The notes: a model not told the origin generated them from the sequence alone. Counted from the first letter of the stretch, positions 3,029-49,516 are shown. The stretch is DNA of 64,000 nt from Anaerolineales bacterium (GCA_050305405.1 JBNLFG010000015.1:68971-132970), one strand, 5' to 3'. Numbers and translations: made by a program.

Positions 3029-3047
3029 GTTTGTGCAGTAATAATGA

Positions 3048-3083
3048 GAGGCGACCCAAGATTTGGGTCGCCTCTTCTTTTTT
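3048..3083 (+). terminator. Intrinsic terminator/attenuator between the SBP and ATPase genes
   Basis: GAGGCGACCCA..TGGGTCGCCTC stem followed by a T-run. Confidence 0.6.
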
Positions 3084-3151
3084 AGCAATTATTTATTTCC
3101 ATCATGGTATGATTTTTTACGTCAATCCAACTTGATACAGGAGCGCTGCCT

Positions 3152-5790: not shown

Positions 5791-6752
5791 ATTTAGAGAT
5801 CATTCTCCACGCTGGTTTAGCGACCGGCACCATTCTCCTATTTGCCGCGATCGGTGAAATTTTCGCCGAACGCGCAGGCATTCTCAACCTCGGCGTCGAA
5901 GGCATGATGCTGCTCGGCGCGATGGCAGGCTTCAGCACATCCCTCTCAACGGGGAACGCCTGGCTCGGTTTGCTGGTCGCCATGCTTGCCGGTGGGATTT
6001 TGAGTCTCGCACACGGATTGGTGACAATCCACTTCCAGGCGGATCAGGTCGTTAGCGGCCTCTCGCTGACCTTCCTTGGAACAGGGCTTGCCCTCGTTTT
6101 AGGAGAGGGGCTCACCGGTCAGAATCCGGCGTTAATTCCCACCGTCAGCATCCCCCTGCTCTCTCAAATCCCCTTCCTGGGGCCGGTCTTCTTCGCAGAG
6201 CACAGCGTGCTGGTCTACATCGGCTACATCTTTGCGCCGCTCTCTGCCTACTACGTCTACAAAACCCGTCCCGGAATGCACCTACGCGCGGTCGGAGAAA
6301 AGCCATCCGCAGCCGACACCCTCGGCATCAACGTTTACGGCGTGCGTTACTTCTATACCTTCGTCGGCGGGATGTTGGCAGGGCTGGCAGGCGCGACCAT
6401 CACTCTCTCCATATCACCGGGTTGGTACAGTACCCAGACCACCTCCGGACAGGGCTGGATCGCCGTTGGCTTGGTCATCTTCGCCCAGTGGAATCCGCTG
6501 CGCGCTGCCTTTGGCGGCTACCTCTTCGGCATGTTGCGTCGCTTCATCCTTGATCTTCAAGGCCCAGCTTTACTCTTTGGCTTTGCCAATCCGCTTTACG
6601 TCAACTCGAACTACGGCTTCTTCCTCCAAATGATGCCCTTCGTGCTGACCATCATTGCTCTGGTTTGGGGCTCACGCGCTGCAACCAAGAAACGACTTGG
6701 CTCACCTGCTGCGCTTGGCATCCCCTACATACGCGGTGAACGCGGTTTATAA
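5787..6752 (+). CDS. ABC transporter permease (second subunit)
   Basis: Polytopic. ATGA overlap with the upstream permease. Confidence 0.8.
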   Translation: MNLEIILHAGLATGTILLFAAIGEIFAERAGILNLGVEGMMLLGAMAGFSTSLSTGNAWLGLLVAMLAGGILSLAHGLVTIHFQADQVVSGLSLTFLGTGLALVLGEGLTGQNPALIPTVSIPLLSQIPFLGPVFFAEHSVLVYIGYIFAPLSAYYVYKTRPGMHLRAVGEKPSAADTLGINVYGVRYFYTFVGGMLAGLAGATITLSISPGWYSTQTTSGQGWIAVGLVIFAQWNPLRAAFGGYLFGMLRRFILDLQGPALLFGFANPLYVNSNYGFFLQMMPFVLTIIALVWGSRAATKKRLGSPAALGIPYIRGERGL

Positions 6753-12328: not shown

Positions 12329-14923
12329 TCAATCGATTTGTACCAACTTTTTCACTACTTTCTTGCGAGGCTTCTTCGGTAAGGGCATCGGGAACTTGGT
12401 ACGGCGCACACCATCGTATTGATAGAGCGCATTCGCCACAGCTGCTGCGGTTGGCACCAAGCCGATCTCACCGACGCCTTTCGCACCGTACGGTCCCAAC
12501 GGATCGGGCACTTCGACGCCGATCACTTCGACAGGGGGCGTCTCTTTGGCACGTAAAATGCCCAGCTTGCGGAAATTCGTGTGCAGCGGAACGCCATTCT
12601 CCATCGGCAAATCTTCGCTGATGGCGTAGCCGATCCCCATGTGGACAGCGCCTTCGACCTGTCCTTCAAAAAGCATTGGATTGTAGATTTTGCCCGCGTC
12701 GTGTGCGGCGGTCACTTTTTCGATCTGCCCGTCATCGTCGATGGAGACAAGCTGCGCCGCATAGCTGTACGAATAATGCGTGATCGGTTCATCGGTGATA
12801 GCATCGGGTTTGGTGGTGAAGTCAACGATCCATTCGCCGAAGTATTCATTGCCAACCAGATCAGCGAGGGTATTGTTTTGCAGATCTTCGCTCAACTTTT
12901 TGCAGGCATCCAAGAGCGCATTCCCCAGCAGGGATGTTGCCCGCGAGGCGGTGGTCATACCGGCATTCTGCTCGGCAACGGTATCGACGCGCACCTCGAT
13001 CAAATCCGGGTGAATGCCCGTTTCATTGCAAACAAGTTGACGGGCGATCGTATTCACGCCCTGTCCCATCTCGGTCCAGCCGTGGTCGATGATGACCTTA
13101 TCCAGCGCAGCAATCGTGATCAGCACGGATGATTCATCCGGCATCCCGTTGCCAATCCCCGTATTTTTCAATCCACACGCCAAACCCGCATTTTTGGTCT
13201 TGTAGAAGGCATCCTTGATCGCTTCAAGCGCGCGTTTGACGCCCACGCCGCCCAACAAAACCTGACCAGTTGCGGTCATTGAACCATCTTGTAGCGCGTT
13301 GTCATAGCGGAACTGCCAGCGGTCAAAACCGCCCTGTTCACAGAGATCATCCACACAACTTTCCATGCCAAAGGTCGCCTGATTGACGCCAAATCCGCGC
13401 ATCGCGCCACAGGGCAGGTTGTTGGTGTAAACTGCAAAGGCTTCAATATCGGTCGCGGGGACGTGATAGGCGCCCGTCGCGTGGCTGGCGATGCGCGTCA
13501 GCACCTTCGCGCCGACCGATGCATACGCGCCCGTATCGCCGACAATGCGTGCCTTGATATAGGTCAGTTTGCCCTCAGCATCGCAGCCGAGTTCGTAATC
13601 CATCCAAACGGGATGGCGTTTGGGGTGCATGATGATCGACTCGTCGCGCGTCAGGTGCACCTTGACAGGCACGCCCATCAGCCAGGCCGCCAGAGCGGCG
13701 TGTCCCTGTACGCTCAAATCTTCCTTACCGCCAAAACCGCCGCCGTTTGCGACCAAAATCACGCGCACCTGCTCCAGCGGCAGTCCCAAAATCTTGGCGA
13801 CCTGCTTGCGGTCATCGTAAATCCCCTGGCTTTGCGAATAGAGCTTGATACCCTCGCCATCCGGCAGTGCGACCGCTGCTTCCACTTCCATAAAAGCATG
13901 CTCGATGCGCTGGGTTTCATAAACGCCCTTCGAGACAAATGCCGTCTTCGCTTTGGCTTCGTCCAGATCGCCGCGCACAAAAACGGGATGGGCGAGGATA
14001 TTCGTCTCGCCATGCACTTTCGGGGATTCAGGTTTCAGCGCTGCGTGCATATCGCTGACGACTTCCAGCGGCTCATACTCGACCTTGAGCTTGCTCATTG
14101 CAGCCCGAGCTTCAGCTTCAGTCCCAGCGACGACACACGCTAAGACGTCCCCGAGGTAATGTGTCACCTCCCCGACCGCAATCATCAGGGGCCAGTCCTG
14201 CGAGATCAAGCCAATCACACGCTCGCCAGGCACATCGTCCGCAGTGATGACGCGCAACACACCGGGCATCTGTTCCGCTTCGCTGCTGTCAATGCTCAAA
14301 ACGCGCGCACGCGGATAGTCACTGAATTTCAGCGCCCCATGCACCATCCCCTCGATGCGGATGTCGTCTGTGTAGTTATGGTCACCTAAAACGAGTTTAT
14401 CCGCTTCGTATTTTGGGTGCCGCGAACCGAGCTTCCCGTCGCTGCTTGGCACAGGAATCTCCTTCTCATCCCGGATCGCTTCAGCCGCATATTGAATAGA
14501 ATCCACAACTTTGGCATACCCCGTACAACGGCAGATATGCGGCGTAAGCGCCTGCTTGATCTCATCTGCTGTTGGGATGGCATTCTTGTTGATAAGCGTA
14601 TTCGCGCGCATCACGATGCCGGGGGTGCAAAATCCGCATTGCACACCGCCCTTTTCGGCAAAGGCATTCGCAAAAACATCGCGGCGATAGTCGCCCAATC
14701 CATCTGGCGTGGTGATGTTGACACCATCAACTTTGCTCATTTTCGTCGCGCAAGAAAGCTTGGATTTCCCGTCAATATCAACGGTGCAAGCGCCACAAGA
14801 GGCTTGCCCGGAGCAGCCATCCTTGACCGAAGTAATGTTCTCATGCTCACGCAGGTAGGTTAAAAGCGAAATCTCAGGATCGCCATCAAATTCTTTTTCC
14901 TGTCCATTCAGGATAAATTTCAT
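12329..14923 (-). CDS. Xanthine-dehydrogenase-family molybdoenzyme with fused N-terminal 2x[2Fe-2S] domains (D. gigas MOP-type aldehyde oxidoreductase architecture, no FAD subunit)
   Basis: CGxCTPG and CRCTGY Fe-S motifs, then a roughly 700-aa Moco-binding domain. Start refined to the MKFILNG Met with a GAGG RBS. Confidence 0.8.
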   Translation of the reverse strand: MKFILNGQEKEFDGDPEISLLTYLREHENITSVKDGCSGQASCGACTVDIDGKSKLSCATKMSKVDGVNITTPDGLGDYRRDVFANAFAEKGGVQCGFCTPGIVMRANTLINKNAIPTADEIKQALTPHICRCTGYAKVVDSIQYAAEAIRDEKEIPVPSSDGKLGSRHPKYEADKLVLGDHNYTDDIRIEGMVHGALKFSDYPRARVLSIDSSEAEQMPGVLRVITADDVPGERVIGLISQDWPLMIAVGEVTHYLGDVLACVVAGTEAEARAAMSKLKVEYEPLEVVSDMHAALKPESPKVHGETNILAHPVFVRGDLDEAKAKTAFVSKGVYETQRIEHAFMEVEAAVALPDGEGIKLYSQSQGIYDDRKQVAKILGLPLEQVRVILVANGGGFGGKEDLSVQGHAALAAWLMGVPVKVHLTRDESIIMHPKRHPVWMDYELGCDAEGKLTYIKARIVGDTGAYASVGAKVLTRIASHATGAYHVPATDIEAFAVYTNNLPCGAMRGFGVNQATFGMESCVDDLCEQGGFDRWQFRYDNALQDGSMTATGQVLLGGVGVKRALEAIKDAFYKTKNAGLACGLKNTGIGNGMPDESSVLITIAALDKVIIDHGWTEMGQGVNTIARQLVCNETGIHPDLIEVRVDTVAEQNAGMTTASRATSLLGNALLDACKKLSEDLQNNTLADLVGNEYFGEWIVDFTTKPDAITDEPITHYSYSYAAQLVSIDDDGQIEKVTAAHDAGKIYNPMLFEGQVEGAVHMGIGYAISEDLPMENGVPLHTNFRKLGILRAKETPPVEVIGVEVPDPLGPYGAKGVGEIGLVPTAAAVANALYQYDGVRRTKFPMPLPKKPRKKVVKKLVQID

Positions 14924-15197
14924 ATTGTGCCTCATTTAAGAGAAGAAAGGGAAAGGTCTGACCTATTAATATCATAAGCCATATAGATTTACAAGGAAGA
15001 GCAAAAAAACGATTACAAAAGCAAATATTTTTACATTTTTTACGTAAGAAAACACTCTTTTTTTAAGGGAAGCACGATAAAATACTGAGAAGCGTCACCT
15101 AATATGTCAAATTTCACAAACGCTTGCTATTTGCTATAAGTTATGCTAAAACTAAAAAGTCAGACGACTGTCCACTATTCTACAGAACAGGAAACAG

Positions 15198-15926
15198 ATG
15201 CTGGTTACCCGCTCCAAGTCCATTGTTGAGCAAGTCAATGAAATTCTCCGCGAGAGGATCCATGACGCGACCTACCAGCCCGGAGAACGTTTGCCGTCTG
15301 AAAGCGAACTGGCAGAGCAATTTGGGGTTAGCCGAGCCACTGTCCGCACCGTTTTAGCGAAACTATCCGTCGAGGGCCTCATCCTGCGTCGACAAGGGGA
15401 CGGGACCTACGTCAACGAGCGCATTCGCGATGTTAACACACATTTGGGGGGCTTATGGGATTTCACACGTCTGATCGAAACCAGCGGATTTTCCGCATCC
15501 ATCCAAGCTTTATCCGTAAAATTAACCGAAGCTACAGAAGAAGACGCACACGCGCTGGCTGTTGACCCGGGCGAGAAACTTTTATCATTAAAACGCCTCT
15601 TCTTTGCGGATGAAACCCCGGTCATCCTTGCCCACAACTTGATACCACAACAATTTATTTCTGCCGCGCCCGAAACCATCGACGGCAACCTGCACATCCG
15701 CGATATTCTACGCGAATACTGCGAACAAGAGATTGCCTTTGCTATTACCGAAATTTGTTCTGCCAGCTATGAGCAGGTCAACGAATATCTCAATCTCAAC
15801 GACAAGGATCACATCCTCAATTTGCGGATGGCATTCTACAGCAAGGAAAACCGCCCGCTGGCTTTGGGCGACAGCTACTTTGACGACAGCAAATTACGTC
15901 TGCGCCTTGTGCAGGCATGGAACTAA
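15198..15926 (+). CDS. GntR/HutC-family transcriptional regulator (HTH plus UTRA effector domain)
   Basis: VSRATVRTVL winged-HTH motif. C-terminal UTRA-like domain. Confidence 0.8.
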   Translation: MLVTRSKSIVEQVNEILRERIHDATYQPGERLPSESELAEQFGVSRATVRTVLAKLSVEGLILRRQGDGTYVNERIRDVNTHLGGLWDFTRLIETSGFSASIQALSVKLTEATEEDAHALAVDPGEKLLSLKRLFFADETPVILAHNLIPQQFISAAPETIDGNLHIRDILREYCEQEIAFAITEICSASYEQVNEYLNLNDKDHILNLRMAFYSKENRPLALGDSYFDDSKLRLRLVQAWN

Positions 15927-16034: not shown

Positions 16035-17174
16035 ATGCGATCTCGACTAAATTCATTATTTGATGCCCTGCTGCCAGTCTTTGCGACTTTGGCTGCGCTT
16101 GGCGTGGGCATGATTATGTTGCTTATTCTGCGAGTCAGCCCACTAGAAGCCTATGGCGCCCTCTGGGAAGGCGCTTTTGGTAGCACGAATGCCATCGCCG
16201 AAACTTTGGTTAAAGCGACGCCGCTTTTGCTGGTCGGTCTGGGTATTTGTATCGCCTTCCGCGCCAATGTCATCAACATCGGTGGCGAAGGGCAAATGAT
16301 TATCGGGGGCATTCTCGCCACGCAAGTTGGTCTTACCTTCACGGATCTACCCGGTTGGTTGGTCATCATTTTAGCAATGTTCGCTGGCTTTCTGGGCGGC
16401 GCAATTTGGGGCGGCATCCCTGGTTTTTTGAAAGCCTACTTTCGTGTAAATGAAATTCTTAGCACTGTCATGATGAATGCCATCGCTGTCCAACTGATGA
16501 ACTTCCTCCTGCGCGGCCCCATGATCGATCCCGCACAAGCAGAAAAAGCCTCCAAAATTCCGCAAACTGCTCGTTTGCTCGAAGCCTTCCGTTTACCACG
16601 TCTGGCCCCCACCCGCTTGCATATTGGCTTCATCATCGCGCTGGTTTTAGCGATCATTGTCTACGTTTTGCTCTGGCGCACCACATTGGGATATCGTATC
16701 CGCGCAGTGGGACAGAACCCACACGCATCCCGTTATGGCGGCATCCGCGTCCGCCGACGCATCGTGACGGCCCTGCTTCTCAGCGGTGCCTTTGCCGGAC
16801 TTGCTGGCGCCATTCAGGTTTACGGCGTTAACTATCGTATGATCACCGACGGCTCGGCATCCGGCTTTACGGGCGCAGCGGGCTTCAATGGCATCGTAGC
16901 GGCGCTCTTTGGGCAACTGCATCCCATCGGCACGATCCCCGCTTCGATCTTCTTCGGCGCGCTGCTGGTCGGCGCGAACAAGATGCAGCGCGTTGTCCAA
17001 ATTCCCTCTGCCCTAATCACCGCCCTAAACGGCTTGGTGGTCATTTTTGTTGTCAGCAGCGAAATCTGGCGCAAACGTCGTCAACGTCAGCGCCTCGCAC
17101 TGGTGCGAATCGCGGAAAAAGAGGGCCCACCCACAGAAACCATCCCCCCTGCTGAGGAGGCAAGTGCATTATGA
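16035..17174 (+). CDS. ABC permease (BMP-type system, paralog of 4675..5790)
   Basis: Similar sequence to the first-operon permease (for example, VKATPLLLVGLGI). Confidence 0.8.
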   Translation: MRSRLNSLFDALLPVFATLAALGVGMIMLLILRVSPLEAYGALWEGAFGSTNAIAETLVKATPLLLVGLGICIAFRANVINIGGEGQMIIGGILATQVGLTFTDLPGWLVIILAMFAGFLGGAIWGGIPGFLKAYFRVNEILSTVMMNAIAVQLMNFLLRGPMIDPAQAEKASKIPQTARLLEAFRLPRLAPTRLHIGFIIALVLAIIVYVLLWRTTLGYRIRAVGQNPHASRYGGIRVRRRIVTALLLSGAFAGLAGAIQVYGVNYRMITDGSASGFTGAAGFNGIVAALFGQLHPIGTIPASIFFGALLVGANKMQRVVQIPSALITALNGLVVIFVVSSEIWRKRRQRQRLALVRIAEKEGPPTETIPPAEEASAL

Positions 17175-18100
17175 ACGAGATCTTTTCAGCAACTGTCATC
17201 ATCGGCATTCTGACATCCGGTATTCGTCTGGCGACACCCTATCTCTATGCCGCCATCGGCGAAACCTTCGGGCAGCGTAGCGGTGTACTTAACCTTGGTG
17301 TGGAAGGGCAAATGCTGCTCGGCGCCTTCGTTTCTTTCTACGTTGCCTTCACGACAGGCAGTTTATGGCTTGGCCTTCTGGGCGCGATGATCGTCGGCGC
17401 GCTGATGGGTCTGGCAATGGCCTACGTGACCGTCAACCTGCAAGCCGAACAAGGCATCAGCGGCATCGGTTTCTATCTTTTCGGTTTGGGTATGAGCGAT
17501 CTGCTCTTTAAGATGCTGCTCGGTACCGTTGAAACCGTCAAAGGCTTCCCGATTGCGCCAATCCCCTTCTTGAGTGATATTCCCGTCATTGGAGCGATCT
17601 TCTTTCAGCAAAATATCCTTGTCTATATCGCCTTTCTGTTGGTGCCAACCGCGTGGTTCGTGCTTAACAAGACCACGCTCGGGCTGAAAATCCGCTCGGT
17701 TGGCGAAAACCCAGATGCAGCCGATTCTCTTGGGGTTAGCGTTGCCAAAGTTCGGTACTTCACGATTATCCTAGGCGGAACCCTCTCCGGGGTCGCGGGC
17801 GCTTCGATGTCGATCGCCTTACTAAACGTCTTCCAGCAAAATATGACCAGCGGCTTGGGCTTCATCGCCGTCGCATTGGTCTACTTTGGTGCCTGGCGTG
17901 CCTGGGGTGTTCTAGCTGGCGCGTTGCTCTTCAGCATGGTCAACTCGCTCCAGTTGTGGATGCAGGTGCTTAATGTCCCGATCCCATCCGACATCGCTGT
18001 GATGCTGCCTTACCTGTTGACCATCATCGTGCTGGTCGCCACCGTTTCACGCGTACGCGCGCCCGCTGCGCTCACAAAACCTTTTGACCGAGGTGATTAA
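17171..18100 (+). CDS. ABC permease (paralog of 5787..6752)
   Basis: ATGA coupling. Similar to the second permease of operon 1. Confidence 0.8.
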   Translation: MNEIFSATVIIGILTSGIRLATPYLYAAIGETFGQRSGVLNLGVEGQMLLGAFVSFYVAFTTGSLWLGLLGAMIVGALMGLAMAYVTVNLQAEQGISGIGFYLFGLGMSDLLFKMLLGTVETVKGFPIAPIPFLSDIPVIGAIFFQQNILVYIAFLLVPTAWFVLNKTTLGLKIRSVGENPDAADSLGVSVAKVRYFTIILGGTLSGVAGASMSIALLNVFQQNMTSGLGFIAVALVYFGAWRAWGVLAGALLFSMVNSLQLWMQVLNVPIPSDIAVMLPYLLTIIVLVATVSRVRAPAALTKPFDRGD

Positions 18101-18197
18101 TTTGGAGAAAGCCAGCCTGTAAAATCGTGGCTGGTTCAAAACAAGGTGGTTTTCTCAATGTTCTCGTACCACCTACAATTCTTATAGGAGAAGAAAA

Positions 18198-19241
18198 ATG
18201 AAGAAAAACTTGCTTTTCGTACTCGTTCTTGCGTTCGCGCTGGTATTGAGTGCATGTGGCGGCGCCCCTGCTGCTGAAGAACCCGCTGCCCCCGCCGAGG
18301 AAATGCCCGCAGAAGAAATGCCTGCTGAGCCTTTCAAAGTTGCGATCATCATGCCCAGCTCCATCACCGACCTGGCATTCAGCCAGAGCATGTACGATGC
18401 TCTTGTAGCTATTCAGGAAGAGATGGGTGGCGAAAGTGCGATGGAAATCGTCTACTCTGAAGGTATGTTCGTGGTGGATGACGCCGCAGCCGCGATCCGC
18501 GACTACGCTTCTGAAGGCTACAACCTGGTCATTGCTCACGGTTCGCAATACGGATCATCCTTGCAGGAAATTGCTCCCGATTTCCCGACCACTGCCTTCG
18601 CCTGGGGTACTACCCTTAACACCTTCGCTGACGAAGGTATCACCAACGTCTTCGCTTACGAAGCTGCCGCACAAGAAGGTGGTTACGTGAACGGCGTGAT
18701 CGCTGCCAGCCTCTCCGAAGCTGGTGTGATCGGCGTTGTTGGTCCGATCGAAGCTGGTGATGCAGCTCTCTACGTCAAAGGTTTTGAAGCTGGCGCAAAA
18801 GCCACCAATGCCGATGTAACCGTCAACGTCAACTGGATCGGCTCCTTCTCCGATGTCGCTTTGGCATCTGAAGCAGCCAATACCCACGTTGCCGCAGGCG
18901 CAGACGTGCTGACCGGTACCGCCCAAATGGTTGTTGGTGCAATCGGCGTCGCAGAAGAGAACGGCGCGCTTTGGTTCGGCACCCAAGCCAGCCAGACATC
19001 CCTCGCTCCTGACGTTGTTGTTGCCAATCAGGTTTACGACTTTACCGGCGTGGTCAAAGACATGATCGCCAAGATCAACGGCGGCGTTTATGGCGGCGAA
19101 GCCTACACCATCACGCTCGCCAATGGCGGCTTGGTCATGGACTACAACAGCGCCTACGACCTGCCCGCTGACGTGAAAGCCCTCGCAGATGAAACCGTTG
19201 CCGGTATCGTCGACGGCTCGATCGAAATCCCCGTAGAATAA
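18198..19241 (+). CDS. BMP-family substrate-binding lipoprotein (paralog 2)
   Basis: Lipobox LSAC. AAEEPAAPAEEMPAEEMP tether. BMP fold. Confidence 0.8.
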   Translation: MKKNLLFVLVLAFALVLSACGGAPAAEEPAAPAEEMPAEEMPAEPFKVAIIMPSSITDLAFSQSMYDALVAIQEEMGGESAMEIVYSEGMFVVDDAAAAIRDYASEGYNLVIAHGSQYGSSLQEIAPDFPTTAFAWGTTLNTFADEGITNVFAYEAAAQEGGYVNGVIAASLSEAGVIGVVGPIEAGDAALYVKGFEAGAKATNADVTVNVNWIGSFSDVALASEAANTHVAAGADVLTGTAQMVVGAIGVAEENGALWFGTQASQTSLAPDVVVANQVYDFTGVVKDMIAKINGGVYGGEAYTITLANGGLVMDYNSAYDLPADVKALADETVAGIVDGSIEIPVE

Positions 19242-19250
19242 TTCAGACTA

Positions 19251-19290
19251 AGACCTGGCAGGCTTGCCTGTCAGGTCTTCTTTCAAAAGC
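19251..19290 (+). terminator. Intra-operon hairpin terminator/attenuator after the SBP gene
   Basis: AGACCTGGCAGGC-ttg-CCTGTCAGGTCTT followed by a T-rich tail. Confidence 0.5.
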
Positions 19291-19360
19291 GCGTGAAGTT
19301 CTTCATGCCTTTTTGAAAGAAGACCCATCCAAAAGATGATTTCCATAAAAGGATAAAGCG

Positions 19361-20929
19361 ATGAGCGATAATAAACTCCCATCAGGGCACACTCGAATCG
19401 ACACTCTGGAGATGCGTGGAGTCACCAAGCGTTTCCCCGGCGTACTTGCCAACAACAAAGTGGATTTTGACGTCCGCGCTGGAGAAGTGCACGCCCTTCT
19501 CGGCGAAAACGGCGCTGGAAAAAGCACCCTGATGAAAGTTCTCTATGGCTTATACGGCCCAGATGAAGGTGAGATTTATCTGAATGGGAAAGCGATCAAG
19601 ATCGAATCCCCAAACGACTCCATCAATCACGGCATCGGGATGATCCACCAGCACTTCATGTTGGTGGAAACCCTCACCGTTGCTGAAAACGTCGCCTTGG
19701 GAATGCCCTCCTCGCGCGGCTTCCTGACCGATCTTGACCGCGTCTCCGAGCGCATCCTTGAATTGGGCAAAATCTACGGGCTGGATGTTGACCCCAACGC
19801 CTACATCTGGCAGCTTTCTGTGGGTCAGCAGCAGCGCGTTGAAATCATCAAAGCCCTCTATCGCGGTGCAGCTCTGCTCATTCTCGACGAACCGACCGCC
19901 GTCTTAACTCCGCAAGAAGTCAAAGAATTCTTCGTCATCATGCGCCAGATGGTCGCCGATGGGCACGCACTAATTTTCATCTCACACAAATTGCACGAGA
20001 TCATGGATATCTGCGACCGCGTCACAGTCCTGCGCGATGGAGAACTGGTGGGCACCAAGATCATCAAAGAGATCACCAAATCGGAACTTGCGAACTGGAT
20101 GGTCGGGCGCGAAGTCAGTATGACGCGCACGCTGGAACCCGTCGAGCGCGGCGCAGCGCGGCTGGAAATCTCGAACGTGAGCTGTAACAGCGACCGTGGA
20201 ACACCTGCTCTGCGCGGGGTTTCGCTGGATGTCCACTCGGGCGAGATTTTAGGGGTAGCAGGCATCTCTGGCAACGGTCAGAAAGAGTTAGCGGAAGCAA
20301 TTACCGGGTTGCGTGAGATTACGGGTGGAACAGTCCTCTTCGAGGGCGAAGATATTACCCACGACCGCCCCGGCGATGTCACCGAGCGAATGCTATCCTA
20401 CATCCCCGAAGAGCGCATGAAAGACGGCATGATCAAAGACTTCACCATCTCTGAAAATATGATCCTGCGCGAGCATCACAAAAGCCCCTTTGCTGAACGC
20501 GGCTTTCTGATGCTCAAAACCATTGCCAAACACACAGATGAATTGATCGACAGTTTCCGTGTAAAAACCCCTTCGCGTGACACAAAAGCTGGCAGCCTGT
20601 CTGGTGGGAATATCCAAAAAGTGGTTTTGGCGCGTGAAATATCACGCCAGCCACGTGTGCTGATCGCCGCCCAACCCACGCGCGGCCTCGACGTTGGTGC
20701 GACAGAATATGTCCACACTCAACTGCTTGAGCAGCGCATCAAGGGCACTGCCATCATGATGATCTCGGAAGACCTCGACGAAGTGATGGCGCTCTCAGAC
20801 CGCATTGCCGTCATCTGTGAAGGCGAGATCATGGGCATCGTCCCGCGCCATGAAGCCACGCCTGAAAAACTTGGCTTGATGATGGCAGGTGTCATGCCCG
20901 AAGAGGAGAAACCCCGCCTGACCCTCTAG
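19361..20929 (+). CDS. ABC ATP-binding protein with duplicated ATPase domains (paralog of 3152..4678)
   Basis: Two Walker A and LSGG motifs. Roughly 50% similar to the first ATPase. Confidence 0.85.
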   Translation: MSDNKLPSGHTRIDTLEMRGVTKRFPGVLANNKVDFDVRAGEVHALLGENGAGKSTLMKVLYGLYGPDEGEIYLNGKAIKIESPNDSINHGIGMIHQHFMLVETLTVAENVALGMPSSRGFLTDLDRVSERILELGKIYGLDVDPNAYIWQLSVGQQQRVEIIKALYRGAALLILDEPTAVLTPQEVKEFFVIMRQMVADGHALIFISHKLHEIMDICDRVTVLRDGELVGTKIIKEITKSELANWMVGREVSMTRTLEPVERGAARLEISNVSCNSDRGTPALRGVSLDVHSGEILGVAGISGNGQKELAEAITGLREITGGTVLFEGEDITHDRPGDVTERMLSYIPEERMKDGMIKDFTISENMILREHHKSPFAERGFLMLKTIAKHTDELIDSFRVKTPSRDTKAGSLSGGNIQKVVLAREISRQPRVLIAAQPTRGLDVGATEYVHTQLLEQRIKGTAIMMISEDLDEVMALSDRIAVICEGEIMGIVPRHEATPEKLGLMMAGVMPEEEKPRLTL

Positions 20930-31617: not shown

Positions 31618-31692
31618 TAAAGTTGCATCCAAAAGACAGGATGTTTGACAAGCAGTGCTATAATCTGCCGAGATTGTCACTTGGAGGTTTCC

Positions 31693-32877
31693 ATGGAATT
31701 TGAACAAATCATAAAACAGCTTGACTGGCTGGATGAAGAACGACGTAAAGATAAAGCGACTATCGCTGCGCAAGTAGAGCATATTGCCACGTTAAATGCT
31801 ACATTGAAAACGCTCGAAGAAAAAACAAAATCACTAGAGAAAGAAATGACGGGCTATGCCTCGCTAAATGCCAGAGTGGAACAGTTTGATGGTTTTTTGG
31901 CGCAAGTTCGTGAAGAGATGGGCGAGACCTTTGGCAAGATGGATAAAAGTGCCAAGGTACGAGAAAAAGAATTGATCGAACGCTTTGAGAGCCAACTTCC
32001 TGAATTCAAAGAGGCGATCACAGATATTCGCAGCAAGATCGATGTTTCAGATATTCGGCGTGACCTGAAGACTCGTGAAAACGAAGAGGTGCGTCTGAGC
32101 GCGGCCTTTACCGAGGTAAAGGCCAAGTTTGACGAGGTCGTCAAAAGCAATAAAGACCTGCAATATGCACAAACGCTCTACGAAGAAAATCGCCGTCAGG
32201 ATCAGAAACGTTTCGCTGATACACAGGGCGAGATCGTGGCTTTACGCAAACGACTCGACGAAGAGCGCGACAAACATCAATTGAATACCGACAACCTGAA
32301 AAATATTGATGCTCGTGTTGCGGAAGTGCTCGCAAGCGAACATAAACGTAAACAAGAGCAAACCGAATTTATTGACAAGCAAATGATCCAATACGCAGAC
32401 CGTGAGCGTGTCTGGAACGAATGGCTTGAAAAAGCGGATACCTTTGCAACCCAGACTGAACTACTTGACACTGAGCTTCAAAAGATGAACGAAGCCACAC
32501 GCGCTACCAAAAAAGCGGAAGAAAGCTACGCTGAACTCAGCCAGAAGATCGAACGTCGCGTACATGAGATCACAGAGATGCAGCGCCTTGCAGAAGACCG
32601 CTTGCGTCAGGAATGGGTCACCTTCAAAGCCGATGACCAAAAACGTTGGACGGGCTATGGGCTCACTCAAGATGAGACCATGAAGAATATCCAAAAGGCT
32701 CTGCAAAAGCTCGAAGAGCGCATGACCGACCTTGATGACAGCGCCCAAACCATGCAAGACAAACTCGAACAAACCACAGATGTGACCGAGCATCAGATGC
32801 AGGAATTGATGAATTGGGCGCACGAATGGCTGACGGCTTACGAACGCGTCATGGGGCACACAAAGAAGAGTAGTTAA
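31693..32877 (+). CDS. K/E-rich coiled-coil protein of unknown function
   Basis: GGAGG RBS and a TGcTATAAT extended -10 upstream. Heptad-rich charged sequence. Confidence 0.5.
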   Translation: MEFEQIIKQLDWLDEERRKDKATIAAQVEHIATLNATLKTLEEKTKSLEKEMTGYASLNARVEQFDGFLAQVREEMGETFGKMDKSAKVREKELIERFESQLPEFKEAITDIRSKIDVSDIRRDLKTRENEEVRLSAAFTEVKAKFDEVVKSNKDLQYAQTLYEENRRQDQKRFADTQGEIVALRKRLDEERDKHQLNTDNLKNIDARVAEVLASEHKRKQEQTEFIDKQMIQYADRERVWNEWLEKADTFATQTELLDTELQKMNEATRATKKAEESYAELSQKIERRVHEITEMQRLAEDRLRQEWVTFKADDQKRWTGYGLTQDETMKNIQKALQKLEERMTDLDDSAQTMQDKLEQTTDVTEHQMQELMNWAHEWLTAYERVMGHTKKSS

Positions 32878-32880
32878 TTT

Positions 32881-34749
32881 ATGCGCGTTATCGGCACCGC
32901 CGGACATGTAGACCACGGTAAATCCACCCTCATCGCTGCGCTGACGGGTACCCATCCTGACCGCTTGAAAGAAGAGCAAGAGCGCGAGATGACCATAGAA
33001 CTCGGCTTTGGTTGGCTGACGCTACCCGATGGCGAAGAGATCGGCATTGTCGATGTCCCCGGTCACCGCGATTTTATCGGCAACATGCTCGCGGGCATTG
33101 GCGGCATTGATGCAGTGGTACTCGTCATCGCCGCCGACGAAGGCGTGATGCCCCAAACCAAAGAGCATCTCGCCATTCTCGACCTGCTTCAAATCCCCAG
33201 CGGCATGGTTGCCCTGACCAAAACCGATCTCGTCCCCGATGCTGAGTGGCTCGACCTCGTCGAAGCCGACATCCGCGAGAGCCTTGAAGGCACGGTACTC
33301 GAAAATGCGCCTTTTGTGCGAGTCTCCGCCAAAGCCAAAACGGGCTTAGACGAGTTCCTAACCACACTTACAAACCTACTGAAAGACAAACCCGAGCGTC
33401 TTGATCTCGGTCGCCCGCGCCTGCCGATTGACCGCACCTTCACCATCGCGGGCTTCGGCACGGTCGTCACCGGCACACTCGCGGATGGCAGTCTAAGCAT
33501 CGGTGATGAAGTCGTCGTGCTGCCATCCGGTCAAAAGGGGCGCGTGCGCGGTCTCCAAACCCACAAGAAAAAAGAAGAATTTTCCGTTCCTGGCAGCCGC
33601 ACCGCTGTCAATATCTCCGGTATTTCGCTCGAAGATATTCGGCGCGGCGAAGTTGTCGTCAAACCGGGACAATATGAATCGACACGCCGACTAGACACGC
33701 ATCTGCGCCTGCTGGATGATATATCCCAACCACTGAAGCATAATACCGAAGTGAAACTCTTCGTCGGCGCGTCCGAGACGATCGCGACCCTGCGCTTGCT
33801 CGGCGTCGAGATGCTTAATCCCGGTGACGAGGGCTGGATCCAACTAGAACTACGCGACCCGACCGTAACCGTGCGCGGCGACCGCTACATCCTGCGCCGC
33901 CCCTCCCCTGCCGAAACGCTTGGCGGCGGCGTGATCGTCGATCATCAACCCAAAGGTCGCCACAAACGCTTTGACGAGAAAGCCATCGAAAAACTGACAT
34001 CGCTCATGGCTGGCTCACCCGCCGACTTACTCTATCAAGCCTCCCTGACGAATGGAGCCGACCTGCTCCAAAACCTGATCCGCGATGCCCGTCTTGAAGA
34101 AGCCGATGCTGCAATAGCCATCGATGAACTTTTTACAGAAGGTAAACTGACCGAACTCGCCAATAAATATGTTATGGCAACGCCCCAATGGGAAACGCTC
34201 CAGAGCCGCACCGTGAATATGGTCACGACCTATCACGAGAATTTTCCTTTGCGGCGTGGCGTGCCGCGCGAGGAGTTGAAGAGCAGGCTCAAGATCGACA
34301 CGAAACTCTTCAACGCCATGTTGACAAAACTCGTCGAGGCAGAGCTGCTCGTCGAAGCGGGGAAAACGGTCGCCCTGCCGACACACGGCATCACGTTTGG
34401 GAGCAAGGAGCAAGCCAAAATTTCAGAGTTGATGCGCCAATTTGATGCAAATCCCTTCTCACCGCCAACAGTCAAATTAGCCACCGAGGAAGTTGGCGAG
34501 GAAATCTTCAACGCCTTAGTCGTACTTGAAGAGTTGATCCAACTTTCGGCAGAGGTGGTTTTCCGTAAATCCGATTATGAAAAAATGATTGGCATGCTGC
34601 GCGAGTATTTGGCAGCGAACGAAAAAATCACCGTCGCCAATGCGCGTGACTTGTACAACACCAGCCGTCGCTACGTGCTGGCCTTTTTGGAGCATCTCGA
34701 TGCCCAGCGCGTGACCCGACGCGATGGCGATTACCGGGTCTTAAACTAA
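32881..34749 (+). CDS. selB: Selenocysteine-specific translation elongation factor SelB
   Basis: MRVIGTAGHVDHGKSTLIAALTG G-domain. Roughly 620 aa with C-terminal winged-helix SECIS-binding domains. Confidence 0.85.
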   Translation: MRVIGTAGHVDHGKSTLIAALTGTHPDRLKEEQEREMTIELGFGWLTLPDGEEIGIVDVPGHRDFIGNMLAGIGGIDAVVLVIAADEGVMPQTKEHLAILDLLQIPSGMVALTKTDLVPDAEWLDLVEADIRESLEGTVLENAPFVRVSAKAKTGLDEFLTTLTNLLKDKPERLDLGRPRLPIDRTFTIAGFGTVVTGTLADGSLSIGDEVVVLPSGQKGRVRGLQTHKKKEEFSVPGSRTAVNISGISLEDIRRGEVVVKPGQYESTRRLDTHLRLLDDISQPLKHNTEVKLFVGASETIATLRLLGVEMLNPGDEGWIQLELRDPTVTVRGDRYILRRPSPAETLGGGVIVDHQPKGRHKRFDEKAIEKLTSLMAGSPADLLYQASLTNGADLLQNLIRDARLEEADAAIAIDELFTEGKLTELANKYVMATPQWETLQSRTVNMVTTYHENFPLRRGVPREELKSRLKIDTKLFNAMLTKLVEAELLVEAGKTVALPTHGITFGSKEQAKISELMRQFDANPFSPPTVKLATEEVGEEIFNALVVLEELIQLSAEVVFRKSDYEKMIGMLREYLAANEKITVANARDLYNTSRRYVLAFLEHLDAQRVTRRDGDYRVLN

Positions 34750-41446: not shown

Positions 41447-41588
41447 AAAACCTCTTGTAATAGAATTTTGGAAAAGACACAAAATTATAATGTGAGGTTC
41501 TCTGGTCTCTATCCCCCATTTGTGTAGAAAAAAAACTACAGACTTTGTAAGTGTGTCTATAGCTTTATATTCACATCTTTTAATTGTT

Positions 41589-42053
41589 TTAGTTGAGCGT
41601 TCTCAGAATTTCGAGCAATTCCTGGTTCTCCGGGATGTCACTCATCGAATGGCCGTAGTGGGCATAACGTGCCACGCCCGCTTTATCGACGATGACCTGT
41701 GCAGGCATACGTCCCAATTTGAAGAGTTTGACTTCTTGCCCAAAGAGCTTCAGCACACTATGTTTAGGGTCGGGAATGCCGATAAAGGGCAGGGTATGCT
41801 CATCCCAATATTTGGCGAAGGCAGCTTCGTTTTCTGGCCCGACCACCAGAATGGTTGTTTGGGCAGCTTCAAATTTTGCGTAGTCATGGCGCAACTGCGC
41901 CATATGCCGTTGGCAATAGGGTCAGAGGAAGCCACGATTGAAAACGAGCAGGACATTGCTCTCTTGGCGGAATTCGGACAAGGTGATGGGGCGTCCGGTG
42001 AAACTATCTAATGAAAAATCGGGGGCTGGGGCGTTGATCTCTACTTTTGGCAT
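41589..42053 (-). CDS. Peroxiredoxin-like (AhpC/TSA / redoxin family) selenoprotein. The in-frame TGA at 41922..41924 encodes Sec in a U-P-Y-C redox motif.
   Basis: Continuous reading frame MPKVEINAPAPDFSL...VLLVFNRGFL-[TGA]-PYCQRHMAQLRHDYAKF. The TGA sits at the conserved peroxidatic Cys position. A downstream hairpin, an RBS and selB in the window support it. Confidence 0.75.
41883..41900 (-). ncRNA. Putative bacterial SECIS element (mRNA hairpin AUGGCGC-AGUU-GCGCCAU)
   Basis: 7-bp perfect stem and a 4-nt GU-containing apical loop. Starts 19 nt 3' of the UGA. Confidence 0.55.
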
Positions 42054-42054
42054 A

Positions 42055-42813
42055 TTATTTCTCCGCTTGGAATTTTATCAGTACTGCATACAAAAATGCA
42101 ATCAAAACCAAGCCAAAGCTTACCCAAATCGCCGAGGTGACAATGCCATTTTGCGGGAATTTGACTCCGATGCCAAATAAGGCCCAGAGAAAAACGGCGA
42201 GATAAGCAAGGTCCCAGCGGCGGAGGGAGATTGCCCACGCTAAGGCTACGACCACGATCAGGATGATGACCATCCACGTTTCAGCGGCGATGCCGAACTG
42301 TCCCCATTTGAAGTAGTAGAGCACGTCGCTGACGTTGGCGATGGTGGCAACCGATATCCAGCCGAGATAAATACTAAATGGAACGGAAGCAAGCCAAAAT
42401 TCCACGCGTGTCGCGTTTTCGTTATCCTGTCTTAAACCTTCGTAGGTGAAGAGCAGGCTGGCGAGCAAAATCAGCATGAAGACTAAGGTCCAACCGAATA
42501 GTTGGTAATGCCAACAGAATATCCAGGTGGCATTGACGAGATTACCGAGCACAACCCACCAGCCGATGCGAGCCAGACGCGGATTGTCGCGTTGTTTTGG
42601 GCTGGCTTGGTAGATGGCAAAGGCGATCAGCCCGATGTAGATAATGCCCCAAATTGAGAAAACATATCCAGCGGGGACGAAGTAAGTGTTGAAGCTATCG
42701 GAGACTTCGCCGGTGGTCAGCCCGTTGATGGGCAGGGCGTTGGCAAGACCGTTGACCGTGATAGTCAGGATGGTGCTGAGAAGCACAGCTATTTGACGGA
42801 AGGTGATTTTCAT
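42055..42813 (-). CDS. TspO/MBR-like tryptophan-rich membrane protein (tentative)
   Basis: Multi-TM protein with an FVPAGYVFSIWGIIY block resembling TspO_MBR. Longer than canonical TspO. Confidence 0.45.
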   Translation of the reverse strand: MKITFRQIAVLLSTILTITVNGLANALPINGLTTGEVSDSFNTYFVPAGYVFSIWGIIYIGLIAFAIYQASPKQRDNPRLARIGWWVVLGNLVNATWIFCWHYQLFGWTLVFMLILLASLLFTYEGLRQDNENATRVEFWLASVPFSIYLGWISVATIANVSDVLYYFKWGQFGIAAETWMVIILIVVVALAWAISLRRWDLAYLAVFLWALFGIGVKFPQNGIVTSAIWVSFGLVLIAFLYAVLIKFQAEK

Positions 42814-43253
42814 TTTTCACTCCTTAATGCGCGTTTGGTTGCCCATGCGCGATAGGTGAATAAAAATTGCAAGCTAAGTCTGCCAAAAAGCAGATGGGTG
42901 AAAAGCCCGCGCCAACCTTTGGGATGACGATATTCGATCTGCTCGTGGATGCGGGTTTGTCTTTCATTGATCGTTTCAAAGCGATGCGTATGCGCCCAAA
43001 ACTCCATCGGGCCGCTCTCTTGTGTATCGGTGAAGCCTTGCTCGCTAACGTTGCTATGCACCGCTCGCCAACGGATGGGAATCGGCCCCAGCCAGAGCGT
43101 GAATTCGGAGATTGAGCCTTCGCCCATCGGATCGGCACGATGAAGCTGCATCGGCGTTGGGCTGAGTTTTTTGAGTGCGCTGGTATGGCGATGAAATTCG
43201 GCTACATCGGCAAGCGGCGCATACACGGTGAAGCTGTAATTGAAAGTCGGCAT
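42810..43253 (-). CDS. SRPBCC-superfamily (cyclase/dehydrase-like) protein
   Basis: FWAHTHRFE motif shared with the paralog at 49052. Confidence 0.6.
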   Translation of the reverse strand: MPTFNYSFTVYAPLADVAEFHRHTSALKKLSPTPMQLHRADPMGEGSISEFTLWLGPIPIRWRAVHSNVSEQGFTDTQESGPMEFWAHTHRFETINERQTRIHEQIEYRHPKGWRGLFTHLLFGRLSLQFLFTYRAWATKRALRSEK

Positions 43254-49051: not shown

Positions 49052-49516
49052 TTACCCAAAAAGCTCTTTCACCTTCACCGTCCGAAAGTCAAAAATGCCT
49101 TTCAGACGGCGCCCCACCCAAAGCGCGTGGACAATGTCTCCGAGAAAACCGAAAGGTAACTCGTAAGTGATTTGGTCAGTAATCTGTGTGCCGCCCTCCA
49201 CCGCTTCAAAACGATGTTCGTGATACCAGAAGCGATAAGGGCCGATCCGCTGCTCATCGACGAAATAGGCCTTCTCTTCAACATGCGCGATCTCGGTCAG
49301 CCAGCGTGATTTAACGAGCGGCATGAACTGCACGCGATATTCGATCAGCTGTCCCTGAAACATCTTGCCTTCCCCGCCGTGAATAATCTCAAATTGCATA
49401 TCGTCAGGGGTCATCTCGTTCAGGTTTTGGGGTGTGGCGAAGTATGCCCAAACATCAGCGAGTGGAGCGGGGACGGTTTGTTGACGGATTAGACGCTGGA
49501 TCATTGCATACTCCAA
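49052..49516 (-). CDS. SRPBCC-superfamily protein (paralog)
   Basis: FWYHEHRFE motif. Confidence 0.6.
   Translation of the reverse strand: MEYAMIQRLIRQQTVPAPLADVWAYFATPQNLNEMTPDDMQFEIIHGGEGKMFQGQLIEYRVQFMPLVKSRWLTEIAHVEEKAYFVDEQRIGPYRFWYHEHRFEAVEGGTQITDQITYELPFGFLGDIVHALWVGRRLKGIFDFRTVKVKELFG

What the first reader, a model, noticed from the sequence alone, without database searches (positions are those of the whole stretch)
41589..42053. Peroxiredoxin-like selenoprotein hidden as two ORF fragments
Reading the minus strand from ATG 42053 gives MPKVEINAPAPDFSLDSFTGRPITLSEFAQESNVLLVFNRGFL. An in-frame TGA follows at 41922..41924. The same frame then continues as PYCQRHMAQLRHDYAKF...TLN to the stop at 41589, 154 codons in total. 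The TGA sits exactly where the redoxin family has its peroxidatic/resolving Cys (the W-C-P-x-C consensus block), which here gives U-P-Y-C, a classic UxxC selenoprotein motif. The ORF track reports only the 104-aa 3' fragment, so automated annotation would call this a pseudogene or miss the redox-active N-terminus. A GGAGA RBS precedes the ATG.
Basis: partly seen in the sequence, partly recalled or inferred. Interest (0 to 1): 0.78.

Follow-up and report, generated by a model that had tools for sequence, protein, structure and literature searches.

The report
Peroxiredoxin-like selenoprotein gene with SECIS hairpin
The two ORF fragments are one real gene for a small thioredoxin-fold redox protein whose in-frame TGA encodes selenocysteine; it belongs to an already described selenoprotein family that gene callers routinely split or mistranslate.

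Summary
On the minus strand, ATG 42053 to TAA 41589 is a 154-codon frame with a single TGA at 41924..41922. The AhpC/TSA domain match runs across that TGA.

The TGA is conserved, not a lesion. All 80 species-level genome loci recovered with the family have TGA at this column, as do 60 of 63 metagenome loci. Two metagenome loci have TGC (Cys) and one has CGA. More distant homologs carry C-P-x-C.

A hairpin (GGCGC-AGUU-GCGYC core) starts 17 nt after the UGA. It meets all four published bacterial SECIS criteria. Its synonymous sites are frozen (Ala GCG, Gln CAG, Leu UUG in 80-81 of 81 genes), while every other conserved codon varies. One AT-rich subgroup keeps the hairpin through two double compensatory changes. 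A divergent subgroup has an equivalent hairpin 9 nt closer to the UGA.

A SelB gene lies 7 kb away in the same window (32881..34749). TGA ends 13 of 56 other ORFs, so the code is standard.

The window comes from an Anaerolineales (Chloroflexota) genome. The protein fits the known "Prx-like thiol:disulfide oxidoreductase" (PF00578, UxxC) selenoprotein family. Sec aligns with the Thr/Ser of the peroxiredoxin PxxxTxxC motif, and C47 aligns with the peroxidatic Cys.

Verdict: real, well supported, a new member of a known kind, of modest interest.

The parts
41589..42053 (-). Complete selenoprotein gene: 154 codons (153 standard residues plus Sec44) and a TAA stop. It encodes a Prx-like thioredoxin-fold protein.
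   Evidence: Full-length homologs. Variability is highest at the third codon position on both sides of the TGA.
41922..41924 (-). UGA codon 44, read as selenocysteine. It is the first position of the U-P-Y-C redox motif.
   Evidence: TGA at this column in 85/85 loci and 60/63 loci. Cys sits in homologs at the same column.
41913..41915 (-). TGC codon for Cys47, the invariant partner of Sec44. It aligns with the peroxidatic Cys of BCP and AhpE.
   Evidence: Invariant column C47. PDB alignments.
41885..41904 (-). SECIS candidate: an 8-bp hairpin UAUGGCGC-AGUU-GCGCCAUG at nt +21..+40 counted from the U of UGA. The apical loop AGUU is at 41896..41893. The conserved 5-bp core is at 41901..41888.
   Evidence: The fold gives -12.4 kcal/mol for the hairpin alone. 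Core pairs are kept in 111-114 of 114 distinct sequences, the loop AGUU in 113/114, and two pairs show double compensatory changes. Synonymous sites are frozen. The published bSECIS constraints are met (PMC13188914).
41905..41915 (-). Small proximal hairpin UGCC-AAC-GGCA at nt +10..+20. It is a possible lower part of, or spacer for, the SECIS.
   Evidence: Three of its pairs hold in 79-82 of 82 sequences. The third position of codon 49 is G in 80/82 despite four or more amino acids there. Its role is inferred only.
42060..42064 (-). GGAGA Shine-Dalgarno-like sequence, 6 nt upstream of the ATG.
   Evidence: Direct reading.
41528..41566 (-). Terminator-like hairpin (12 bp) followed by U8, 23 nt after the stop codon.
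   Evidence: -15 kcal/mol, z = -3.2 against shuffles.
42055..42813 (-). Upstream co-directional gene for a 252-aa Trp-rich multi-pass membrane protein with no family match. Its TAA stop ends 1 nt before the selenoprotein ATG, so the two are probably co-transcribed and translationally coupled.
   Evidence: A homolog lies within 6 kb of the selenoprotein gene in 21 of 79 related loci.
32881..34749 (+). selB, the selenocysteine-specific elongation factor. This is the trans-acting factor that reads the SECIS.
   Evidence: Pfam GTP_EFTU, Beta-barrel_SelB, SelB-wing_2 and SelB-wing_3. NCBIfam TIGR00475 selB scores 329.5 bits against a cutoff of 242. The same gene is present in the syntenic relative L001.

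Best explanation
This is a single gene for a cytoplasmic, about 17 kDa thioredoxin-fold oxidoreductase of the 'Prx-like thiol:disulfide oxidoreductase' selenoprotein family. During translation, SelB-GTP-Sec-tRNA(Sec) binds the mRNA hairpin that begins 17 nt after the UGA. The hairpin has an AGUU apical loop 25 nt from the UGA. SelB then delivers selenocysteine to UGA codon 44, so the ribosome continues to the TAA at 41589. In the protein, Sec44 sits at the N-terminus of the first long helix and forms a U-P-Y-C47 redox centre, the selenium version of a CxxC motif. The inferred mechanism is that the selenolate attacks an oxidised substrate (a disulfide or a hydroperoxide/sulfenic acid), Cys47 resolves the adduct as a selenenylsulfide, and the centre is re-reduced by a thiol system. 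Shown: gene integrity, conservation of the TGA, Sec/Cys pairing, RNA-level constraint on the hairpin, presence of SelB, and fold class. Inferred: actual Sec insertion, the chemical steps, and the substrate.
For: (1) The frame and TGA are as described, and the Pfam AhpC-TSA/Redoxin match spans the TGA. (2) TGA sits at the identical column in 85/85 loci, including 80 species-representative genomes down to 61% identity, and in 60/63 metagenome loci down to about 38% identity. (3) Both halves evolve as coding sequence in this frame: entropy at codon positions 1/2/3 is 0.88/0.64/1.57 upstream and 0.65/0.44/1.49 downstream. (4) Cys homologs occupy the same column: TGC in L102 and L104, CPFC or CPYC in P0017, P0027, P0049, P0087, P0128-P0141 and others. 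(5) The hairpin meets the four bSECIS constraints quoted in PMC13188914: a 4-nt loop with G at position 2 followed by U, a 5-8 bp stem, 25 nt spacing, and -12.4 kcal/mol. (6) There is RNA-level selection on the hairpin. In the 81 distinct gene sequences, codons +8 to +10 after the TGA are GCG (80/81), CAG (81/81) and UUG (81/81), and codon +11 is only CGC or CGU. In the same genes the background usage is GCG 23%, CAG 61% and UUG 19.5%, and all other conserved columns use 2-6 synonymous codons. (7) The AT-rich subgroup (L086, L089) has GAUGC-AGUU-GCAUC, i.e. G:C->A:U and C:G->U:A at two pairs. The divergent LRGF-U-PYCRAQLARLR subgroup has GCGCGC-AGUUG-GCGCGC shifted 9 nt. (8) selB is in the window. 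(9) TGA is an ordinary stop for 13/56 window ORFs. (10) An AlphaFold model of the Cys homolog P0027 (pLDDT 92.5) places residue 44 immediately before helix 45-56. Its nearest solved folds are BCP peroxiredoxins (TM 0.83) and ResA thiol-disulfide oxidoreductases (TM 0.72-0.76). (11) The family (PF00578, UxxC) is listed as a high-confidence predicted prokaryotic selenoprotein (PMC13188914; PMC2398784; PMC1794560).
Against: There is no direct evidence of selenium incorporation. selA, selD and tRNA-Sec were not found in the 64 kb window and the rest of the genome could not be examined. The hairpin is almost invariant, so classical covariation support is thin. It rests on two sequences with double changes, and the shuffle control shows no excess. 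Part of the nucleotide conservation overlaps conserved amino acids (H-M-A-Q-L-R). No Rfam family matches. The biochemical function is inferred from fold and motif only. The protein lacks the Pro and Thr of the canonical Prx motif, so peroxidase activity is uncertain.
Confidence: 0.92

Rival explanations
1. The gene is a pseudogene, a peroxiredoxin-like gene inactivated by a nonsense mutation (TGG or TGC to TGA).
For: Database 'full-length' homologs show W at this column, which at first sight suggests an ancestral TGG. One metagenome copy (L088) has CGA and an out-of-frame N-terminus, so decayed copies do exist.
Against: Where the DNA was checked, the W is TGA mistranslated with genetic code 4 (L005; L086 and L087). 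P0124, P0091 and P0125 look like a 43-aa piece, a 104-aa piece and a 154-aa W-form of one gene. TGA recurs in more than 140 sequences across phyla, with purifying selection on both halves.
Confidence: 0.02
2. Translation stops at the UGA. The 43-aa peptide and/or a 104-aa protein started at ATG 41903 are the real products, giving two separate genes.
For: Gene callers report exactly these two ORFs. An ATG (Met51) lies 6 codons after the TGA.
Against: Neither piece is a complete thioredoxin fold. The single Pfam domain and the AlphaFold model span both pieces. Met51 lies inside the conserved hairpin and has no SD-like sequence of its own. The conserved redox Cys47 would be lost. The two halves are never found as separate genes. 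Cys homologs are single 150-160 aa proteins.
Confidence: 0.03
3. UGA is decoded as a standard amino acid (Trp or Gly) through an altered genetic code or near-cognate read-through, not as Sec.
For: Read-through with Trp would also give a full-length protein, and database translations show W.
Against: TGA terminates 13 of 56 ORFs in the window. The organism encodes SelB. The column is Cys in homologs, never a verified TGG. A SECIS-type hairpin under RNA-level selection follows the codon.
Confidence: 0.02

Closest known systems
Prx-like thiol:disulfide oxidoreductase selenoprotein family (Kryukov & Gladyshev 2004). It is listed as PF00578, UxxC/UxxU in PMC13188914, and as 'Prx-like 1' in the GOS selenoproteome, PMC2398784.
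   Same: Both have an AhpC/TSA (PF00578) domain, a UxxC motif, Cys homologs with CxxC, and a SECIS directly downstream of the UGA. The published occurrence in anaerobic Deltaproteobacteria is matched here by Smithella and deltaproteobacterial loci L060 and L079.
   Different: I could not align the window protein to the type sequence (WP_010940744.1), so whether it belongs to the same subfamily is not shown. The members found here are overwhelmingly Anaerolineae/Chloroflexota. The 2006 survey reports only 3 selenoproteins for the whole phylum Chloroflexi.
BCP/PrxQ and AhpE-type peroxiredoxins (e.g. 2cx3, 3drn, 1xvw)
   Same: These are the best sequence and structure matches (E=3e-9; TM 0.83). 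C47 aligns with the peroxidatic Cys.
   Different: The PxxxT/SxxC motif is not kept. Pro is replaced by invariant Arg40 and Thr/Ser by Sec44. The Prx catalytic Arg aligns with invariant Pro117 rather than with an Arg. The active centre is therefore CxxC-like.
ResA/TlpA-type thiol-disulfide oxidoreductases (1su9, 4nmu)
   Same: Both have the thioredoxin fold with an insertion and a CxxC at the helix N-terminus. Identity is 27-30% and TM 0.72-0.76. The NCBIfam ResA model gives a weak hit. An M-P-A motif before the beta-strand resembles the Trx-fold cis-Pro; this last point is an inference.
   Different: There is no signal peptide or membrane anchor (the N-terminus is MPKVEINAPAPDF), so the protein is presumably cytoplasmic. 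The scores are far below the ResA family cutoff.
NCBIfam NF040769, SelL-related redox protein
   Same: It is the best NCBIfam hit (76 bits, E=2.5e-21), and SelL is itself a Prx-like selenoprotein family.
   Different: The score is below the curated cutoff of 120, and only residues 9-105 align. The protein is not a member.
E. coli fdhF/fdnG bacterial SECIS
   Same: Both are hairpins inside the coding sequence just after the UGA, with G-U in a small apical loop, read by SelB.
   Different: The sequences differ, and this hairpin has a tight AGUU tetraloop. No bulged U was identified. Binding to SelB has not been tested.

Membership tests
Bacterial selenoprotein gene (Sec-UGA recoding) | An in-frame UGA conserved among orthologs, with coding conservation on both sides | tested here: met
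   TGA in 85/85 and 60/63 loci. Variability is highest at the third codon position on both sides.
Bacterial selenoprotein gene (Sec-UGA recoding) | Cys-containing homologs with Cys aligned to the UGA (a Sec/Cys pair) | tested here: met
   TGC in L102 and L104. C-P-x-C in P0017, P0027, P0049, P0087, P0128-P0141, P0186, P0206, P0215 and P0266.
Bacterial selenoprotein gene (Sec-UGA recoding) | [quoted passage not shown] | tested here: met
   Loop AGUU, 8-bp stem (5-bp conserved core), 25 nt spacing, -12.4 kcal/mol. Synonymous sites are frozen.
Bacterial selenoprotein gene (Sec-UGA recoding) | The genome encodes the Sec machinery (selA, selB, selC, selD) | tested here: inconclusive
   selB is present at 32881..34749. 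No selA, selD or tRNA-Sec were found in the 64 kb window.
Bacterial selenoprotein gene (Sec-UGA recoding) | Selenium physically incorporated at the UGA position | not testable with these tools
   This needs 75Se labelling or mass spectrometry.
Prx-like thiol:disulfide oxidoreductase selenoprotein (PF00578, UxxC) | An AhpC/TSA (PF00578) domain above the gathering threshold | tested here: met
   71.9 bits against a cutoff of 26.
Prx-like thiol:disulfide oxidoreductase selenoprotein (PF00578, UxxC) | A UxxC redox motif at the CxxC position of the thioredoxin fold | tested here: met
   U44-P-Y-C47. Residue 44 immediately precedes helix 45-56 in the model. The motif is conserved as U-P-[FY]-C.
Prx-like thiol:disulfide oxidoreductase selenoprotein (PF00578, UxxC) | Sequence relationship to the published type members (e.g. 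Geobacter WP_010940744.1) | not tested
   The type sequence could not be retrieved with the available tools.
Canonical peroxiredoxin (BCP/PrxQ, AhpE) | A PxxxT/SxxC active-site motif with peroxidatic Cys | tested here: not met
   In the alignment to 2cx3 and AhpE, Pro -> Arg40, Ser/Thr -> Sec44, and only the Cys (C47) is kept.
Canonical peroxiredoxin (BCP/PrxQ, AhpE) | A conserved catalytic Arg before the beta-strand (RxxFIID) | tested here: inconclusive
   The Prx Arg aligns with Pro117. A nearly invariant Arg115 lies two residues earlier.
NCBIfam NF040769 SelL-related redox protein | A score at or above the curated cutoff (120 bits) | tested here: not met
   76.1 bits, partial alignment.
ResA/TlpA extracytoplasmic thiol-disulfide oxidoreductase | An N-terminal signal peptide or membrane anchor, and a score above the family cutoff | tested here: not met
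   35.8 bits against a cutoff of 170. The N-terminus has no hydrophobic segment.

The most novel reading that the evidence does not exclude
The Anaerolineae-centred clade (motifs NRGF-x-U-P-[FY]-C and HYGHSMSDIP) may be a functionally distinct, uncharacterised selenoenzyme subfamily rather than just another Prx-like copy. Two hints point toward it being a dedicated selenium-based reductant for BCP-type peroxiredoxins or for a membrane partner. First, a Cys-form is fused to a canonical BCP domain in P0131. Second, a Trp-rich membrane protein is translationally coupled upstream. In addition, the SECIS appears to dictate the protein sequence: A-Q-L is invariant in Sec forms of the main group but variable in Cys forms.
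Probability: 0.2. Interest if true: 0.4.

Novelty: new member of a known kind. Interest (0 to 1): 0.3.

Why it matters
The redox-active N-terminus of this protein is missing or wrong in essentially every automated annotation I looked at. It appears as a 43-aa stub plus a 104-aa 'peroxiredoxin Q/BCP', or as a full-length protein with a spurious Trp from code-4 translation. The family is present in at least 80 species-level genomes, mostly Anaerolineae, a phylum for which early selenoproteome surveys listed almost no selenoproteins. So selenium use in these abundant anaerobic-digester and sediment bacteria is under-counted. The nearly invariant AGUU hairpin gives a simple signature for re-annotating these genes. 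The biology itself, a UxxC thioredoxin-fold selenoprotein, is already established in principle.

Tried and rejected
Several checks led nowhere:
- Rfam gave no gathering-level match in the window. A permissive scan of 41500..42100 gave only a sub-threshold sRNA hit over the terminator and a chance pseudoknot hit. Bacterial SECIS elements of this type are not modelled there.
- ARAGORN found no tRNA or tRNA-Sec in the window.
- Pfam scans found no SelA or SelD in the window. These covered all but six of the 57 long window ORFs, plus syntenic L001 annotations for most of the rest.
- A window-wide scan for other split-by-TGA frames gave no other credible selenoprotein candidate.
- My first hairpin notation was shifted by one column and gave poor pairing. 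I corrected it.
- Formal covariation statistics are uninformative because the stem is nearly invariant. RNAalifold's covariation term is -0.18, and the shuffles equal the observed value. The support comes instead from synonymous-site freezing and from the divergent subgroups.

I considered and rejected three readings: pseudogene, two separate genes, and an altered genetic code (see rival explanations).

Neighbourhood conservation was weak: the 252-aa membrane gene in 21/79 loci, DUF1295 in 31/79, DegV in 31/79 and DUF4345 in 29/79. I judged this to reflect synteny among related Anaerolineae rather than a functional operon. selB proximity is seen only in the closest relatives, with no homolog within 6 kb in the other 79 loci.

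Full report
**Observation**

The minus strand from ATG 42053 to TAA 41589 translates to MPKVEINAPAPDFSLDSFTGRPITLSEFRQESNVLLVFNRGFL*PYCQRHMAQLRHDY...TLN. It contains a single internal TGA at 41924..41922. The mechanical ORF list holds only the 43-aa and 104-aa pieces. GGAGA sits 6 nt upstream of the ATG. Everything else is as described. With U replaced by C, the protein matches Pfam AhpC-TSA (6e-20) and Redoxin (2.7e-16) over residues 6-137, straight across the TGA.

**Source organism and homologs**

The closest database entries are 104-aa fragments that are 98% identical. They come from three Anaerolineales MAGs (GCA_050292365.1 and relatives) with the same gene order. A word-indexed search returned 7,201 homologs. 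Among the best 120 there were three kinds:
- 42 proteins of about 104 aa starting at the Met after the TGA.
- About 70 'full-length' proteins with W at the TGA column.
- Only a handful with C, R or L at that column.

In every case where I looked at the DNA, the W is an artefact. In L005 (P0001), L086 and L087 (P0113) the codon is TGA, and the stored protein does not equal the table-11 translation. One cluster also holds a 43-aa piece, a 104-aa piece and a 154-aa W-version whose sequences tile exactly, as expected for one gene.

**Conservation of the TGA**

A scan of one genome per GTDB species gave 517 confirmed relatives. All of the best 80, which are 61-98% identical, have TGA at this column in the motif NR[GT]F-x-U-P-[FY]-C. 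Most are labelled Anaerolineae or Chloroflexota. This includes the complete genome of Leptolinea sp. HRD-7 and MAGs of Anaerolinea thermophila and Brevefilum fermentans. The exceptions are:
- Actinomycetota/Thermoleophilia: L025, L027, L036, L065, L074, L078.
- Acidobacteriota: L029.
- Deltaproteobacteria/Smithella: L060, L079.
- A short contig binned as Oscillospiraceae: L061.

A metagenome scan seeded with a divergent AT-rich member added 63 loci down to about 38% identity. Of these, 60 have TGA, two have TGC (L102, L104) and one has CGA (L088). The N-terminus of L088 is out of frame, so it is probably a damaged copy.

More distant representatives of 50%-identity clusters carry Cys at the column: CPFC, CPYC, CSHC, WCPFC. 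This is the classical Sec/Cys pair.

Variability across 81 genes is concentrated at third codon positions both upstream of the TGA (0.88/0.64/1.57 bits at positions 1/2/3) and downstream (0.65/0.44/1.49). Both halves are therefore translated in this frame.

**SECIS**

In the window, nt +21..+40 after the U of UGA form UAUGGCGC-AGUU-GCGCCAUG. This is -12.4 kcal/mol as the centroid structure.

The published bacterial SECIS model has four requirements (PMC13188914):
- a 3-9 nt apical loop;
- G in the first two loop positions, usually followed by G or U;
- a 4-16 bp stem;
- 16-37 nt between the UGA and the loop, with MFE <= -7.5 kcal/mol.

All are met: loop AGUU, 8 bp, 25 nt spacing.

Across 114 distinct sequences in this register, the five core pairs hold in 111-114 cases and the loop is AGUU in 113. 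Because the stem is nearly invariant, covariation statistics say nothing. The informative signal is at synonymous sites. In the 81 distinct gene sequences, Ala is GCG in 80 of 81 (82 distinct 63-nt segments, including the window, give 81 of 82). Gln is CAG and Leu is UUG in all 81, and Arg is only CGC or CGU. Background usage in the same genes is GCG 23%, CAG 61% and UUG 19.5%. Every other conserved amino-acid column uses two to six synonymous codons. Third-position entropy is 0.43 bits in the hairpin against about 1.5 elsewhere.

Three natural variants support structure rather than sequence:
- The AT-rich HMMQLH subgroup (32% GC, L086/L089) has GAUGC-AGUU-GCAUC. Two pairs are changed on both sides and still pair.
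- L111 keeps a 7-bp stem with loop GGCU.
- A divergent LRGF-U-PYCRAQLARLRD subgroup (19 distinct sequences) has GCGCGC-AGUUG-GCGCGC, 9 nt closer to the UGA.

One of the two TGC (Cys) copies has already lost a stem pair through a synonymous GCG->GCA change (L104). In Cys homologs the A-Q-L tripeptide is not conserved. This suggests that the RNA element constrains the protein sequence in the Sec forms.

A second small hairpin (UGCC..GGCA, +10..+20) with a frozen third-position G is also conserved. I have not established its role.

**Sec machinery and genetic code**

The ORF at 32881..34749 is SelB. It matches TIGR00475 at 329.5 bits against a cutoff of 242, and the SelB beta-barrel and winged-helix domains. 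It is also present in the syntenic relative L001. No selA, selD or tRNA-Sec lie in the window. TGA terminates 13 of 56 long ORFs in the window, so TGA is not generally reassigned. No other split-by-TGA candidate in the window looked credible.

**What the protein is**

Against solved structures, the best sequence matches are BCP-type peroxiredoxins and M. tuberculosis AhpE. In those alignments Sec44 falls on the Ser/Thr of PxxxT/SxxC, Cys47 falls on the peroxidatic Cys, and the motif's Pro is replaced by invariant Arg40.

An AlphaFold model of the true-Cys homolog P0027 (59% identical, pLDDT 92.5) has a thioredoxin-type fold with residue 44 just before helix 45-56. Foldseek places it between Sulfolobus Bcp1/Bcp4 (TM 0.83) and ResA thiol-disulfide oxidoreductases (TM 0.72-0.76, 27-30% identity).

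NCBIfam gives only sub-threshold hits. The best is 'SelL-related redox protein' NF040769 at 76 bits against a cutoff of 120.

The protein therefore is not a canonical peroxiredoxin. It is a CxxC-type (here UxxC) Prx-like oxidoreductase. That is exactly the profile of the 'Prx-like thiol:disulfide oxidoreductase' selenoprotein family. This family is listed as PF00578, UxxC among the high-confidence predicted prokaryotic selenoproteins. It is abundant as 'Prx-like 1' in marine metagenomes, and was reported earlier in Geobacter, Syntrophus and Desulfotalea. I could not align the protein to the published type sequence, so membership of that exact subfamily is not shown.

**Mechanism (inferred)**

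SelB bound to the AGUU hairpin delivers Sec-tRNA(Sec) to UGA44. Sec44 at the helix N-terminus is the nucleophile. Cys47 resolves the adduct as a selenenylsulfide, and a thiol reductant recycles the centre. The substrate is unknown. There are three hints only:
- One representative (P0131) fuses a Cys-form of this domain to a canonical BCP domain.
- The upstream gene, whose stop ends 1 nt before the selenoprotein ATG, encodes a Trp-rich multi-pass membrane protein without family assignment. Its homolog lies nearby in 21 of 79 loci.
- A family-specific HYGHSMSDIP motif is nearly invariant.

A terminator-like hairpin with a U8 run follows the gene.

**Verdict**

It is one more member of a selenoprotein family known since 2004, though one that is much better represented in Anaerolineae than the literature I could read indicates. 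The practical value lies in annotation: fragments and spurious Trp residues in the databases. It is not new biology. Interest 0.3; new member of a known kind.

Noticed in passing
window 32881..34749 (+): A complete selB gene (622 aa) lies 7 kb from the selenoprotein gene. It is not next to selA. The upstream 410-aa ORF (31645..32877) has no Pfam match and only weak coiled-coil-type NCBIfam hits.
   Followed up: partly
database proteins P0001-P0120; loci L005, L086, L087: Many 'full-length' homologs in public protein collections carry Trp at the Sec position. The gene caller used a code-4 model, even on contigs of about 10 kb. P0124, P0091 and P0125 tile as a 43-aa stub, a 104-aa fragment and a 154-aa W-form of what appears to be one gene.
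   Followed up: yes
window 42055..42813 (-): A 252-aa Trp-rich multi-pass membrane protein has no Pfam or NCBIfam match. It is translationally coupled to the selenoprotein gene, and a homolog lies near that gene in 21 of 79 related loci.
   Followed up: partly
L102:1630 and L104:1630 (metagenome loci): Two close relatives have TGC (Cys) instead of TGA. L102 still has the intact SECIS hairpin sequence. L104 has a synonymous GCG->GCA change that breaks one stem pair. This looks like recent Sec-to-Cys conversion with relaxation of the RNA constraint.
   Followed up: partly
L088:3031 (JGI contig Ga0568853_0004210): One copy has CGA (Arg) at the Sec column with an intact hairpin but an out-of-frame N-terminal region. 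It is probably a decaying copy or an assembly error.
   Followed up: partly
L126-L148 (metagenome loci): A divergent Sec-containing subgroup (LRGF[LM]-U-PYCRAQLARLRD) carries its hairpin GCGCGC-AGUUG-GCGCGC 9 nt closer to the UGA than the main group. The Q-L codons that provide the AGUU loop have moved by three codons in the protein.
   Followed up: partly
protein P0131 (309 aa): This is a tandem fusion of a Cys-form of this Prx-like domain (LRGFACPYC) with a canonical BCP peroxiredoxin domain (FYPKDMTPGC). It may be a Rosetta-stone hint that the family works together with peroxiredoxins.
   Followed up: partly
window 42810..43253 (-) and 49052..49516 (-): These two ORFs (147 and 154 aa) hit the same set of related loci in tblastn and so appear to be paralogs. 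The second corresponds to a gene annotated Polyketide_cyc2 (weak) in the syntenic locus L001.
   Followed up: no
window 1694..6752 and 16035..20929 (+): There are two separate Bmp/PnrA-type ABC uptake operons (binding protein, ATPase, two permeases). A xanthine-dehydrogenase-type molybdoenzyme gene lies at 12329..14935 (-), with a GntR regulator at 15198..15926. Together they suggest a purine/nucleoside utilisation region.
   Followed up: no
window 41528..41611 (-): A sub-threshold Rfam hit to Streptococcus sRNA SpF39 (31 bits against 60) overlaps the terminator-like hairpin after the gene. It is most likely a chance match to a terminator.
   Followed up: no
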